Part shown: piece by piece, positions 28,681 through 30,762 of the stretch
How the letters are laid out: each line of letters opens with the position of its first letter
How positions within the stretch are numbered: position 1 is the first letter of the stretch
Source of the DNA: a virus
IMG/VR virus record: IMGVR_UViG_3300021963_000081
Span: 22,280 to 86,279 of that record
Length of the DNA stretch: 64,000 nucleotides
Direction: 5' to 3' (one strand)
The notes under the pieces: generated by a model
What the model was told of the DNA's origin: nothing
Databases searched by the model: none
The model's input: the letters and a program-made list of their open reading frames with translations, nothing else
Program-made: the position numbers and the translations under genes

Positions 28681-30762
28681 ATGCCAAGACCGTTTGAATT
28701 AAATAAAACGTGGATAGTTGGACCATCTAGAGGCACAACCTCATTCAATGCACCAAGCAGCATCACCATTGATTATGGTCGTCATGTTGCTTCAGTCTCA
28801 GGTCGCGGTGGGTCAGGAAATGCGCCTGCAGCTGCCACTTGGGTGACGAATTATAATACCAATTATAACGTTGCATATCCAATTGCAAATCAACCAGCTG
28901 TTGCTTGGACCATCAATTATAGTAGCAATTATAATGTTGCGTATCCGATTGCGACTCAGCCAGAAGCAGCACGTCCAGGTACAGCATGGACAATTAACTA
29001 TAATGCTGCTGTGTATCCAATCGCTAATCAACCAGAAGCAGCTCGACCAGCAGCTGCTTGGACGATTAACTACACTTCAAATTATAATATTGCTTATCCA
29101 GAAGCAGGTCGCCCTGTCACTGCATGGGTAATTAATTATAATTCAAATTACAACGTTGCTTATCCAGAAGCAGCAAGACCTGTTACTGCTTGGACGATCA
29201 ATTACAACACTAACTACAATGTTGCTTATCCGATTGCGGCGCAACCAGAAGTTGCTAGACCATCAACTGCTTGGACCATCAATTATAATGTTGCATATCC
29301 AGAAGCCGCTAGACCAGTAACTGCTTGGACAATCAATTACAATGCTGCTGTGTATCCGATTGCAAATAGACCAGAGGCTGCTCGACCAGCAACAGCATGG
29401 ACAATTAACTATAACGTAGCATACCCAGAGGCAGGTCGACCACCAACAGCTTGGGTTATTAATTATAACACAAATTACAACGTTGCATATCCAGAAGCTG
29501 CTCGTCCTGTAAGTGCATGGACGATCAATTATAACACCAACTATAATGTCGCATATCCGATTGCGAACCAACCTGTTGCTGGTGTTGATTGGTTTAGAAC
29601 ATGGTCGGTTAATGGGTTTCCATATGTATTTTCTGTAGAACCAATTGAAGTTGGGAATTCGCAAAATGCACTCACTCCACTTCCTGCATATGGAAGTAGC
29701 CCTAATCTTCCAGGAAGCCCAGAAACCATCGGAAACTTTAATTTTATGCCTGATGGTCAATTTGGTGAGTTGAGTGCTCAATATTCTTTACTTGGCACAA
29801 ATTACAATACCAACTATAACGTAGCATATCCAGTGGCTACCAGACCAGAAGCTGCTCGACCAGCAACTGCTTGGACGATTAACTATAATACTGCTGTGTA
29901 TCCGATTGCAACTAGACCAGAAGCCAACCGCCCAGTTACTGCATGGACGATCACTTATAACACAGTAAGACCAGAAGCAACTCGTCCTGCAACTGCTTGG
30001 ACTATCAATTACAATACCAACTATAATGTTGCCTATCCAGAAGCAACTAGACCAGCGACTGCTTGGACTATTAACTATAACGTAGTATATCCAGAAGCAA
30101 CTCGACCAGCGACTGCTTGGACAATTAACTACAATACCAATTACAACGTCGCATACCCAATCGCAACACAACCAGAAGCTGCGCGTCCAGCCACTGCTTG
30201 GACTATCAACTACAATACAGTATATCCAATCGCAACACAACCAGAGGCGGCTCGTCCAGGAACTGCGTGGACAATTACTTACAATGCTGCTGTATATCCA
30301 ATTGCCAATCAACCAGAAGCAACAAGACCAGTGACTGCCTGGACGATCAATTATAACACGAATTATAATGTGGCATACCCAGAAGCTGCTCGCCCAGCGA
30401 CTGCTTGGACCATTAATTACAATACAAACTATAATGTTGCATATCCGATCGCCAATCAACCAGAAGCGGCTCGACCAGCGACAGTATACAACACCAATTA
30501 TAATATCGCATATCCAATTGCCAGTCAGCCGATCGCCAATCAACCGATCACATCTTATGCACCAGGAAATGTGGGAACACCAACTAATGTTCTTGGCGTT
30601 TACTTCCCAGGTGGTCCAATAGATCTTTCAGGATTTGGTGGTCCTTCAGGAACTGCTCCTTATGTTCCGTCAACTGAAGTAGTCTACTGGAGTTTCCCAG
30701 ACTTCCAAAATCATCCAGTTAGTGTTCCTCCAGGTGGGTCAATCGACGTTAACATTGAATAA
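28681..30762 (+). CDS. Zipper-repeat virion protein A (cap / arm / knob / arm / cap)
   Basis: 693-aa ORF 5 nt after the fibre gene; xxxY and Pxxxx unit runs; synonymous codons vary between repeats; paralog of 30822-32987. Confidence 0.85.
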   Translation: MPRPFELNKTWIVGPSRGTTSFNAPSSITIDYGRHVASVSGRGGSGNAPAAATWVTNYNTNYNVAYPIANQPAVAWTINYSSNYNVAYPIATQPEAARPGTAWTINYNAAVYPIANQPEAARPAAAWTINYTSNYNIAYPEAGRPVTAWVINYNSNYNVAYPEAARPVTAWTINYNTNYNVAYPIAAQPEVARPSTAWTINYNVAYPEAARPVTAWTINYNAAVYPIANRPEAARPATAWTINYNVAYPEAGRPPTAWVINYNTNYNVAYPEAARPVSAWTINYNTNYNVAYPIANQPVAGVDWFRTWSVNGFPYVFSVEPIEVGNSQNALTPLPAYGSSPNLPGSPETIGNFNFMPDGQFGELSAQYSLLGTNYNTNYNVAYPVATRPEAARPATAWTINYNTAVYPIATRPEANRPVTAWTITYNTVRPEATRPATAWTINYNTNYNVAYPEATRPATAWTINYNVVYPEATRPATAWTINYNTNYNVAYPIATQPEAARPATAWTINYNTVYPIATQPEAARPGTAWTITYNAAVYPIANQPEATRPVTAWTINYNTNYNVAYPEAARPATAWTINYNTNYNVAYPIANQPEAARPATVYNTNYNIAYPIASQPIANQPITSYAPGNVGTPTNVLGVYFPGGPIDLSGFGGPSGTAPYVPSTEVVYWSFPDFQNHPVSVPPGGSIDVNIE
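28843..29586 (+). repeat. Protein A first arm, 11 Y-run/P-run cycles
   Basis: Run lengths 32 33 23 32 32 33 22 23 22 32 32. Confidence 0.9.
29794..30558 (+). repeat. Protein A second arm, 11 cycles
   Basis: Run lengths 33 23 22 32 22 33 23 23 32 33 23. Confidence 0.9.

What the first reader, a model, noticed from the sequence alone, without database searches (positions are those of the whole stretch)
28681..30762. Self-complementary protein 'zipper': mirror-image run-length code in protein A
Seen: the arms parse into runs of 4-aa Y-units (TINY, NTNY, NVAY; a few 5-aa NAAVY variants and one NTVR) alternating with runs of 5-aa P-units (PIANQ, PEAAR, PVTAW). First arm (Y,P per cycle): 32 33 23 32 32 33 22 23 22 32 32. 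Second arm: 33 23 22 32 22 33 23 23 32 33 23. The second arm read backwards is 32 33 23 32 32 33 22 23 22 32 33, matching 21 of 22 positions with every Y-run opposite a P-run of equal length. The one exception is an extra Y-unit next to the knob. Read forwards only 13 of 22 match, so this is not a simple duplication. If 2 and 3 were independent and equiprobable, 21 matches would be about 2^-21 (rough; needs a permutation test). Inference: the chain folds as one long antiparallel hairpin with Y-unit:P-unit pairing, analogous to base pairing, and the aperiodic code fixes the register. About 55 unit pairs at roughly 1.4 nm would give a stalk of order 70-80 nm (estimate). I do not know a described family with this property.
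Basis: partly seen in the sequence, partly recalled or inferred. Interest (0 to 1): 0.96.

Follow-up and report, generated by a model that had tools for sequence, protein, structure and literature searches.

The report
Mirror-coded hairpin fibre protein of phage
Two neighbouring genes of an uncultivated aquatic T4-like phage encode long repeat proteins whose two halves match each other in mirror image, so that each chain most likely folds back on itself into a thin stalk with an exchangeable knob at its tip; no such protein family has been described.

Summary
Arm 2 read backwards matches arm 1 in 21 of 22 run lengths, with each Y-run opposite a P-run (exact p 1.7e-5). Read forwards, 13 of 22 match. 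Paralog B (30822-32987) has a different code and matches 22 of 22, or 21 if an extra knob-side unit is counted.

Of 20 long relatives, 19 need 0-4 unit insertions for a perfect mirror; shuffled arms need 6.5-13. The twentieth is a parser artefact. At least 14 distinct codes occur, so unit changes in one arm are compensated in the other. Two other repeat vocabularies are mirrored too, one only weakly.

An ortholog keeps A's arms (91-96% identity) but carries an unrelated knob (19%). The N- and C-terminal caps are modelled as one beta-sandwich. AlphaFold2 could not model the arms, so no structure confirms the hairpin.

Folding in cis versus pairing between two chains stays open. The idea that the code sets the register is not supported. 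No Pfam, PHROG, PDB or cultured-phage match was found.

Best reading: a fold-back stalk-and-knob fibre, probably for host recognition. The scan noted the family before on other DNA (e1-5739325).

The parts
28681..30762 (+). Gene A, 693 aa: N-cap, arm 1, knob, arm 2, C-cap
   Evidence: ORF; parse; boundaries
28681..28842 (+). A N-cap (aa 1-54), conserved across the family
   Evidence: Invariant K9, W11, Y32, G33, G41, G46 in the alignments. In the P0004 model the matching part is confident and lies with the C-cap in one beta-sandwich
28843..29571 (+). A arm 1 (aa 55-297): 11 cycles of Y-unit runs and P-unit runs, code 32 33 23 32 32 33 22 23 22 32 32
29572..29796 (+). A knob (aa 298-372), non-repetitive and exchangeable
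   Evidence: 18.8% identity to the knob of the ortholog in L001 while the arms are 91-96% identical
29797..30558 (+). A arm 2 (aa 373-626): 11 cycles, code 33 23 22 32 22 33 23 23 32 33 23, the mirror complement of arm 1
30559..30762 (+). A C-cap (aa 627-693) and stop codon, conserved across the family
   Evidence: the matching part of the P0004 model is confident
30822..32987 (+). Gene B, paralog, 721 aa from the ATG at 30822 (the ORF opens at a TTG at 30798). N-cap 30822-30983, arm 1 30984-31781, knob 31782-31982, arm 2 31983-32783, C-cap 32784-32984. Its code differs from A's and is also mirrored
   Evidence: (61 consecutive complementary unit pairs)
25886..28675 (+). Upstream 929-aa repeat fibre protein; context, not part of the hairpin proteins
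   Evidence: PHROG tail-fibre families at its C-terminal end; weak bactofilin-type repeat match below Pfam's cut-off. Conserved upstream of the hairpin genes in related loci
33029..36089 (+). Downstream cassette that travels with the hairpin genes: 2OG-Fe(II) oxygenase (33029-33640), DUF6065 (33641-34396), a second copy matching the same PHROG (34399-35139), GlcNAc-type glycosyltransferase PF11397 (35136-36089). A link to A and B is inferred only
   Evidence: Next to the hairpin genes, the oxygenase is found in 42 of 43 related loci and the transferase in 38 of 43

Best explanation
A and B are fibrous virion or adhesin proteins of an uncultivated aquatic T4-like myovirus.

Proposed fold: each chain runs out from a base, turns in a non-repetitive knob of about 70 residues, and runs back antiparallel. 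The N-terminal 54 residues and the C-terminal 67 residues then meet to form one beta-sandwich base. Along the stalk, each 4-residue Asn/Tyr unit (xxNY) of one arm lies opposite a 5-residue Pro unit (Pxxxx) of the other arm. That gives one Tyr and one Pro per unit pair, with the roles swapping every 2-3 units.

Consequence for evolution: the two arms must stay in step over about 55 (A) or 61 (B) unit pairs. A unit gained or lost in one arm is therefore tolerated only with a matching change in the mirror arm. This constraint produces the aperiodic mirror code.

Function: the knob is the distal, exchangeable tip and most likely recognises the host.

Shown here: the mirror complementarity, its compensation across relatives, the knob swaps, the gene context, and that the caps are modelled together.

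Inferred: the physical hairpin, Tyr-on-Pro packing with Y runs as strands and P runs as a longer, polyproline-like wrapping segment, oligomerisation (probably trimers, as in other phage fibres), and the role in host recognition.
For: (1) Mirror complementarity in A and B. A matches 21 of 22 (p 1.7e-5). B matches 22 of 22 (p 5.9e-6), or 21 if the extra knob-side unit is counted. At unit level there are 55 and 61 pairs.

(2) Family-wide compensation. 67 distinct two-cap proteins were examined and 58 parsed with 8 or more units in both arms. The mirror indel distance was below the forward distance in 49 of the 58, equal in 5 and above it in 4. p was at most 0.05 in 31 and at most 0.001 in 20. Of 20 proteins with 40 or more units per arm, 19 have a distance of 0-4 against null means of 6.5-13. 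Examples: L002:6001-8562 has 74 against 74 units at distance 0; L012 has 41 against 41 at distance 0. There are 14 distinct arm-1 codes among the 20. P0005 has one more cycle than P0009 in each arm.

(3) The apparent exception L002:3586-5919 has its middle P unit enlarged by an 8-residue loop.

(4) Other repeat vocabularies with the same caps. By my reading of the printout, L026 reads LLSLLLSS against SSLLLSLL (mirror 8 of 8, forward 2 of 8), and its TAAVY and VSGESY elements face each other at 7 of 7 junctions, including one swapped pair. The programmatic LCS test of L026 gave mirror 15, forward 14, p 0.007. The L036 type places its 7-residue units at mirrored positions, but only weakly significantly (p 0.013-0.097 in five proteins).

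(5) Residue-level cross-arm association. P units with Asn at position 3 face Y units that begin with Ser in 41 of 45 cases. With the same-arm neighbour it is 4 of 42. Within 2:2 run pairs it is 33 of 34. Within-protein shuffles reached this in 0 of 5000 trials.

(6) Caps. In the AlphaFold2 model of homolog P0004, the N-cap and C-cap have block pLDDT of 61-91. Single jelly-roll domains align to 85-104 residues spanning model residues 11-398. The C-cap alone has only about 65 residues, so the alignment needs both caps.

(7) Knob exchange. A against its ortholog in L001: N-cap plus arm 1 95.6% identical, knob 18.8%, arm 2 plus C-cap 91.0%. L003 against L005: ends 95.6-96.8% identical, knobs in different clusters. 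There are 17 knob clusters among the 67 proteins, and A's cluster occurs on several arm vocabularies.

(8) Context. The genes lie between baseplate-wedge genes and tail-fibre genes.

(9) Alternatives excluded: no DNA palindrome and no same-arm run equality.
Against: No structural evidence exists for the arms. AlphaFold2 gave mean pLDDT 44.2 (P0004, 9-sequence alignment) and 36.5 (A, 23-sequence alignment), with the arms at about 25-45.

The jelly-roll matches of the caps are weak (Z 4.0-5.3) and lie in the range the tool calls common.

Exceptions. P0001 has about 13 units in arm 1 against 41 in arm 2. P0034 lacks one arm-2 cycle that its relative P0023 has. These may be real uncompensated variants or collapsed repeats in metagenome assemblies; this was not resolved.

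Nine of the 58 parsed proteins gave a mirror distance not below the forward distance, mostly in vocabularies the parser handles badly (P0012, P0015, P0026-P0030). Only P0026 was re-read by eye.

Relatives share ancestry, so the per-protein p-values are not independent.

Y units (4 aa) and P units (5 aa) differ in length, so simple strand-to-strand pairing needs a geometric explanation that I can only guess at.

All sequences come from metagenome assemblies. No virion proteomics, expression data or cultured phage is available.
Confidence: 0.68

Rival explanations
1. The arms pair antiparallel between two chains, not within one. Arm 1 of one chain lies on arm 2 of a second chain (a head-to-tail dimer or domain swap). 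This would give a rod with a composite cap domain at each end and the knobs in the middle.
For: The mirror code fits this exactly as well as a hairpin in cis. A single-chain AlphaFold2 model can only place the caps together in cis, so searches do not discriminate.
Against: Phage fibres have one attachment end and one binding end. The knob is the exchangeable module, which fits a distal tip better than a mid-rod position. The short loop-like knob of 60-110 residues directly joins the two arms. In A, P0002, P0033 and P0037, arm 2 carries one extra unit directly beside the knob, read here as closing the turn.
Confidence: 0.15
2. Hairpins of three chains assemble into a six-stranded trimeric fibre. 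On this view the Y:P complementarity mainly reflects packing in the trimer (Y runs in the core, P runs wrapped outside), not a two-stranded zipper.
For: Phage fibres are typically trimers (established knowledge). In T4 gp37 the D10 domain is built from residues 811-881 and 1010-1026, so that chain goes out and comes back (PMC6957217, passages read). The best structural matches of the cap domain are jelly rolls, of which the TNF and C1q members form trimers (recalled knowledge; Z 4.0-5.3). An 8-residue loop is tolerated in the middle P unit, which fits exposed P runs. Five residues outside per four inside fits a wrapping outer strand (inference).
Against: The jelly-roll matches are weak. This is a refinement of the best explanation, not a contradiction of it.
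Confidence: 0.12
3. The mirror pattern is a by-product of repeat history or of assembly and has no structural meaning. Examples would be duplication of an array that was already palindromic, or mis-assembled repeats.
For: B's arms are themselves nearly palindromic (20 of 22) and match forwards in 20 of 22. All sequences are from short-read metagenome assemblies. The quasi-periodic L036-type arms give only weak significance.
Against: A's arms are not palindromic (12 and 14 of 22) and match forwards in only 13 of 22. The pattern is a complement (Y opposite P), which duplication cannot make. There is no DNA inverted repeat above 24 nt. The same A and B codes recur in an independent contig, at 85% (A) and 92% (B) identity by tblastn; in my global alignments A's parts outside the knob are 91-96% and B is 93% identical. 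14 different codes are all mirrored. Contigs of three other runs cover the stretch piecewise with no differences and no indels.
Confidence: 0.04

Closest known systems
[quoted passage not shown]
   Same: A fibre of a T4-like phage in which each chain runs out to a small distal head and returns, so that the base domain is built from two separate stretches of the chain. D10 is residues 811-881 plus 1010-1026 (PMC6957217, passages read). The distal head binds the receptor. The gene lies in the tail-fibre module.
   Different: There is no sequence similarity: the PDB sequence search gave 0 hits at E up to 1 and no Pfam family passes. A and B lack the iron-binding His motifs of the gp37 needle; A has two His residues, both in the caps (sequence). 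The gp37 fold-back covers about 200 residues; here the whole protein folds back, with about 250 residues per arm. No two-letter complementary repeat code is described for gp37.
Antigen I/II (P1, SpaP) adhesin stalk of Streptococcus mutans
   Same: One chain folds back so that a proline-rich polyproline-II segment intertwines with a non-proline segment into a long thin fibril carrying a globular domain. Exposed Pro side chains pack on aromatic residues (review PMC3707005, passages read).
   Different: In AgI/II one arm is entirely alanine-rich alpha-helix and the other entirely Pro-rich. Here both arms contain both unit types in alternating runs of 2-3, and the roles swap along the stalk. There is no sequence similarity. 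The non-proline units here are Asn/Tyr tetrapeptides. AlphaFold2 draws them as strands, at low confidence.
RNA stem covariation (an analogy of method, not of molecule)
   Same: Two distant, antiparallel segments keep a complementary pattern through compensatory changes, and this is the evidence for pairing.
   Different: The 'letters' are peptide units of 4-5 residues, and the changes are unit insertions and deletions. The chemistry of the pairing is unknown.

Membership tests
T4 gp37-type fold-back fibre tip | Detectable sequence or profile similarity to gp37 or to the gp12, gp10 and gp11 collar domain | tested here: not met
   phmmer against all PDB chains: 0 hits at E up to 1. Pfam: no family passes for A. 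PHROGs: 0 families for A and B
T4 gp37-type fold-back fibre tip | Repeated His motifs that coordinate iron along the needle | tested here: not met
   A has two His residues, both in the caps, and none in the arms (sequence). The feature itself is taken from PMC6957217
T4 gp37-type fold-back fibre tip | The chain goes out and returns, and the base is made of N- and C-terminal pieces | tested here: inconclusive
   Supported indirectly by the mirror code and by the caps modelled as one domain in homolog P0004. There is no confident model of the arms
Antigen I/II adhesins | An alanine-rich helical repeat region and a separate proline-rich repeat region flanking a variable domain | tested here: not met
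   Both arms of A and B mix Y and P units. No Pfam AgI/II domains were found
Collagen-like fibre | Gly-X-Y triplet repeats | tested here: not met
   The arms are xxNY and Pxxxx units. Gly is 4.5% of A
TNF/C1q-like jelly-roll (cap domain only) | A compact jelly-roll beta-sandwich of about 100-140 residues that forms trimers | tested here: inconclusive
   VIA-align Z 4.0-5.3, rmsd 2.8-4.2 A over 85-104 residues for the rows quoted, on the P0004 model. The tool says Z under 8 may reflect only a common arrangement. Trimerisation was not tested (unavailable)
Phage-MuB_C (PF09077) | At least one domain match that passes on its own | tested here: not met
   B scores 44.3 bits in total (cut-off 25) but has 0 stretches that pass. 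A scores 17.8 bits. This is summed weak matches to the repeats, read here as a compositional artefact

The most novel reading that the evidence does not exclude
The arms use a true peptide-level pairing code. Tyr-type units recognise Pro-type units one to one. Finer letters sit on top, such as Ser-first Y units opposite Asn-3 P units, and TAAVY opposite VSGESY in another vocabulary. A protein hairpin 55-75 units long is then specified much as a nucleic-acid stem is. The code evolves by compensatory changes. Co-expressed paralogs can carry mutually incompatible codes: A crossed with B pairs worse than random, in the 2.5-4.6% tail. The conserved neighbouring prolyl-hydroxylase-like oxygenase and GlcNAc-transferase would modify the Pro units. 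This would be a new fibrous fold, and a natural, programmable heterotypic protein zipper.
Probability: 0.3. Interest if true: 0.95.

Novelty: new variant of a known kind. Interest (0 to 1): 0.85.

Why it matters
If the stalk really is a single chain folded back over 55-75 unit pairs, it would be a new way to build a thin fibre of roughly 70-100 nm. That length is an estimate for extended strands. The evidence for it, compensatory repeat indels, is of a kind rarely seen for proteins.

It would give phage biology a new class of host-recognition fibre with a cassette-like exchangeable tip. These viruses are found in lakes and estuaries: 19 studies hold a third or more of the sampled words.

It would give protein design a natural heterotypic Tyr/Pro zipper whose length can be set by the number of units.

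It is directly testable, because short natural members of 260-300 residues exist (P0049, P0037, P0044).

The conserved oxygenase and GlcNAc-transferase cassette beside it suggests a phage-encoded proline hydroxylation and glycosylation route acting on a structural protein. That would itself be unusual.

Tried and rejected
AlphaFold2 on homolog P0004 (9-sequence alignment A1) and on A (23-sequence alignment A3). The arms had pLDDT of about 25-45 and pTM was 0.33 and 0.29. Nothing can be said about the arm fold, and the tools return no contact map. In the A model the DSSP strands fall on the first 5-7 residues of each Y run, which is only a low-confidence hint.

Complex prediction was asked for N-cap plus first cycle against last cycle plus C-cap of A.

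Foldseek against BFVD with the P0004 model: 0 matches at E up to 0.001. ESM Atlas: no usable hit and no model.

Searches that found nothing:
- Megablast of 25000-35000 against the phage collection.
- tblastn of A and of A's C-cap at E up to 0.1. The tool warns that records of or near the window's own genome may be left out, and the low-complexity filter may hide the repeats.
- Genome contigs (185,579 prokaryote species): 4 pattern matches, none confirmed.

'The code fixes the register'. Sliding an ideal hairpin by one cycle (5 units) leaves 0.82-0.89 of pairs complementary. The fraction of shuffled codes that do as well or better is 0.37-0.95 for five codes. The codes are therefore not optimised against slippage. 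I read the aperiodicity as drift under a compensation constraint.

'Paralogs carry orthogonal codes'. This holds for A with B and for their orthologs in L001 (2.2-4.6% tail). It does not hold for 5 other co-encoded pairs, where the fraction of null distances at or above the observed was 0.39-0.99. It is not a general rule.

Unit-subtype table. NxAY units face Px..Q or Px..R, NxNY units face PE..R, and xxNY units face Px..W, Px..Y or Px..F. This follows from reversed order within runs of equal length and adds nothing independent. No clean relation was seen between the aromatic end of P3 and positions 2-3 of the facing Y1 unit.

Parser limits. P0012, P0015, P0021, P0026-P0030, P0039, P0053, L026 and L032-L038 use units that the parser reads poorly, so their numbers are not meaningful. 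L026, L036 and P0026 were re-read by eye (sequences). P0053 has arms that are a direct repeat (forward LCS 10, mirror 7); by eye the repeat is itself roughly palindromic.

Literature. Searches found no paper describing this family or a mirror-coded fibre. Only listings and abstracts were seen, except for passages of PMC5537660 (not used), PMC6957217 and PMC3707005. Supplements were not consulted. The viral prolyl 4-hydroxylase of chlorella virus PBCV-1, acting on Pro-rich repeats, is recalled from memory and comes from no call.

Read laying. Contigs of runs X1-X3 cover the stretch in pieces with 0 differences and no indels; one X2 contig spans 28681-30143. No single contig spans a whole gene, and one of these runs may be the source sample. 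This is consistency only, not independent proof of repeat order.
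Full report
WHAT IS THERE. The window is part of an IMG/VR virus record of 86,279 bases, estimated about 50% complete. Genes upstream match baseplate-wedge families, and large tail-fibre-like proteins lie on both sides. The nearest cultured relatives of the gp6-like wedge protein are the Methylophilales phages Melnitz and the Pelagibacter phages HTVC008M and Mosig, at 34-41% identity. This is therefore a divergent aquatic T4-like myovirus. The stretch 28681-32987 is held in estuary, marine, freshwater and lake metagenomes; 19 studies have a share of 0.34 or more.

Gene A (28681-30762, 693 aa) is followed by paralog B. B's ORF opens at a TTG at 30798, but orthologs begin at the ATG at 30822, giving 721 aa.

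CHECK OF THE OBSERVATION. I wrote a dynamic-programming parser that knows only 'P-type unit starts with Pro' and 'Y-type unit ends in Tyr or Phe'.

Arm 2 reversed matches arm 1 in 21 of 22 run lengths, with Y runs opposite P runs. Read forwards, 13 of 22 match. The exact probability given the composition is 1.7e-5. Shuffles reach it in 19 of 1,000,000 trials for run lengths and 27 of 500,000 for whole cycles. Any register shift destroys the match, leaving at most 13 of 19.

B has a different code. A's arm 1 against B's arm 2 in mirror gives 6 of 22. B itself matches 22 of 22 (p 5.9e-6) if the fourth Y-type unit beside its knob is assigned to the knob, and 21 of 22 otherwise. B's arms are nearly palindromic in themselves, so they also match forwards in 20 of 22. 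A's arms are not (12 and 14 of 22). A is therefore the cleaner case.

Pairing units inwards from the caps without gaps gives 55 pairs in A (43 complementary, one wildcard, 11 complementary) and 61 consecutive complementary pairs in B. The pattern is not a DNA palindrome. Equality of neighbouring runs in the same arm does not explain it either (4-6 of 11 and 2-3 of 10).

RELATIVES. The family is rare and unnamed.
- A HMMER scan of 1.84 billion representative proteins found 44 hits, 25 of them at E of 1e-10 or better.
- The word-indexed search found 31 hits.
- No Pfam or PHROG family was found for A or B beyond one compositional artefact.
- The PDB sequence search gave no hit.
- The phage collection and one genome each of 185,579 prokaryote species gave no match.
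- IMG/VR gave 43 loci, from which I read 27 further distinct proteins with both caps.

In all, 67 distinct two-cap proteins were examined. For each, the caps were located by motifs and the knob by a score blind to the mirror property. I then computed the number of unit insertions needed to turn arm 1 into the reverse complement of arm 2. This was compared with the forward distance and with 2000 shuffles of arm 2's run lengths.

Of the 67, 58 had 8 or more parsed units in both arms. The mirror distance was below the forward distance in 49, equal in 5 and above it in 4. p was at most 0.05 in 31 and at most 0.001 in 20.

The 20 proteins with 40 or more units per arm have mirror distances of 1, 1, 0, 1, 14, 0, 3, 0, 3, 0, 4, 0, 1, 1, 2, 0, 3, 1, 0 and 4. 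Null means are 6.5-23 and forward distances 3-24. The outlier at 14 (L002:3586-5919) arises because the middle P unit is replaced in several cycles by a 13-residue version with an 8-residue loop, which the parser split into extra units.

The 20 proteins carry 14 distinct arm-1 codes. Shorter members add more codes, read by hand:
- P0004 and P0007: 33 33 23 23 against 32 32 33 33.
- P0005: 32 32 32 33 23.
- P0009: 32 32 33 23.
- P0023: 32 33 23.
- P0044: 23 22.

P0005 differs from P0009 by one extra cycle in each arm.

OTHER VOCABULARIES. Proteins with the same caps but other repeat units are mirrored too.
- L026. By my reading of the printout, long and short units read LLSLLLSS in arm 1 and SSLLLSLL in arm 2 (mirror 8 of 8, forward 2 of 8; 1 in 56 by composition). 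The element after each unit is TAAVY in arm 1 and VSGESY in arm 2. Each arm has one exception, and the two exceptions sit at mirror positions, so 7 of 7 junctions are complementary. The programmatic LCS test of L026 gave mirror 15, forward 14, p 0.007.
- L032-L038. The units are 7 or 8 residues long. The all-8 region lies at the cap side of both arms. The 8-8-7 region lies at the knob side, and its single 8-8-8-7 irregularity falls at the mirrored place. These arms are mostly periodic, so significance is weak (p 0.013-0.097 in five proteins).

RESIDUE-LEVEL SIGNAL. In 29 proteins with clean stems (1149 unit pairs), P units with Asn at position 3 face Y units that begin with Ser in 41 of 45 cases. 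With the same-arm neighbour it is 4 of 42. Within 2:2 run pairs alone it is 33 of 34. Within-protein shuffles never reach the observed count (0 of 5000 in both tests). Shared ancestry among the B-like proteins inflates this, so I treat it as supporting evidence and not as proof of contact.

EXCEPTIONS. P0001 has 13 units in arm 1 against 41 in arm 2. P0034 lacks one arm-2 cycle that P0023 has. Both come from short metagenome contigs. The P0034 difference lies between two near-identical repeats, as expected for a collapse or a recombination event. I could not decide between those. Several vocabularies defeat the parser; they are listed under Tried and rejected.

CAPS AND KNOB. AlphaFold2 on homolog P0004 gave confident caps (block pLDDT 61-91) and unusable arms. 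A structure search found only weak jelly-roll matches (TNF, C1q, phage tip proteins; Z 4.0-5.3). These alignments cover 85-104 residues spanning model residues 11-398. The C-cap alone has only about 65 residues, so the N-cap and C-cap must sit in one sandwich. That is what a hairpin requires, although a single-chain model could hardly show anything else.

The knob is the variable part, with 17 sequence clusters among the 67 proteins. A and its ortholog in L001 are 95.6% identical over N-cap plus arm 1, 91.0% over arm 2 plus C-cap, and 18.8% over the knob. L003 and L005 likewise share 95.6-96.8% identical ends with knobs from different clusters. A's knob cluster occurs on several arm vocabularies. 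Cassette exchange of this kind is what receptor-binding tips of phage fibres show (established knowledge).

HOW IT MOST LIKELY WORKS. The chain leaves a composite base, runs out as arm 1, turns in the knob and returns as arm 2, with each xxNY unit against a Pxxxx unit.

The steps in this paragraph are inferred. Y runs alternate hydrophobic or aromatic residues with Asn and Thr, like an amphipathic strand, and AlphaFold2 draws strands there at low confidence. P runs, with Pro every fifth residue, cannot be regular strands and are likely polyproline-like. One Tyr and one Pro per unit pair suggests Tyr-on-Pro packing, as described for polyproline recognition and for the AgI/II stalk (PMC3707005). 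Five residues against four fits a P run that wraps around a straighter Y run. Loop insertions are tolerated in the middle P unit, which fits an exposed position. Trimerisation is plausible but untested.

The aperiodic code is best read as a result of the need to keep both arms in step, not as a device to set the register. A slip of one cycle keeps 82-89% of the pairs, and real codes are no better than shuffled ones at excluding slips. The caps and the knob already fix the register covalently.

COMPARISON WITH WHAT IS KNOWN. The nearest functional analogue is the fold-back tip of T4 gp37 (PMC6957217). The nearest architectural analogue is the helix-and-polyproline hairpin stalk of streptococcal AgI/II (PMC3707005). 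Membership in either is excluded by the tests made here: no sequence similarity, no His motifs, and no separate Ala-rich and Pro-rich arms. Three features are new: a family without annotation, both arms carrying both unit types with swapping roles, and evidence for pairing from compensatory unit indels.

VERDICT. I file it as a new variant of a known kind, a fold-back stalk-and-knob phage fibre, with a real chance of a new fibrous fold. Interest 0.85. The scan has noted this stretch several times, and a relative on other DNA once (e1-5739325, not checked here).

Noticed in passing
window 33029-36089; loci L001-L043: A cassette lies directly beside the hairpin genes: 2OG-Fe(II) oxygenase (PF13640), two DUF6065-like proteins and a GlcNAc-type glycosyltransferase (PF11397, the Skp1 hydroxyproline GlcNAc-transferase family). 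The oxygenase is found in 42 of 43 related loci, DUF6065 in 39 and the transferase in 38. In L032-L038 the transferase sits upstream instead, still adjacent. This suggests hydroxylation and glycosylation of the Pro units. No modification was tested.
   Followed up: partly
window 25886-28675 and 42052-44991: The 929-aa repeat fibre upstream of A and the 979-aa fibre further downstream share a C-terminal domain of about 100 residues (phrog_9017 and phrog_7760, 'tail fiber protein'). The upstream fibre keeps its place next to the hairpin genes in most related loci.
   Followed up: partly
window 37051-41775: A 1574-aa protein with very strong matches to collagen-like tail-fibre PHROGs (E down to 1e-215, many repeated stretches). 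GC rises to 0.52 in 40001-42000.
   Followed up: no
window 30798-32987 (protein B): B scores 44.3 bits against Pfam Phage-MuB_C (cut-off 25), but no single stretch passes. This is a summed compositional match to the repeats and could mislead automatic annotation.
   Followed up: yes
window 29263-29781 and 29788-30543, minus strand: Long antisense ORFs of 172 and 251 aa run through gene A. They are most likely a by-product of the repeat's codon composition; no evidence of coding was sought.
   Followed up: no
proteins P0053, P0064, P0067: Distant proteins share the caps (E 1e-9 to 4e-4) but have quite different middles. P0064 (201 aa) has NPITPIAPTGGT-like repeats and no knob. P0067 has SYTYT-type repeats. 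P0053 has arms that are a direct repeat. The split cap domain seems to be a general base for several kinds of stalk.
   Followed up: partly
locus L002:3586-5919: In six cycles the middle P unit (PEAAR type) is replaced by a 13-residue PEGNVTPGAPTR or PEGNTTPGAPTR. This is an 8-residue loop inserted at the same place each time.
   Followed up: partly
loci L001-L013: The hairpin genes usually come as a tandem pair, A-like then B-like, with different arm lengths: 60 and 74, 45 and 55, or 43 and 52 units. Only in the window and in L001 do both paralogs have 11 cycles per arm.
   Followed up: partly
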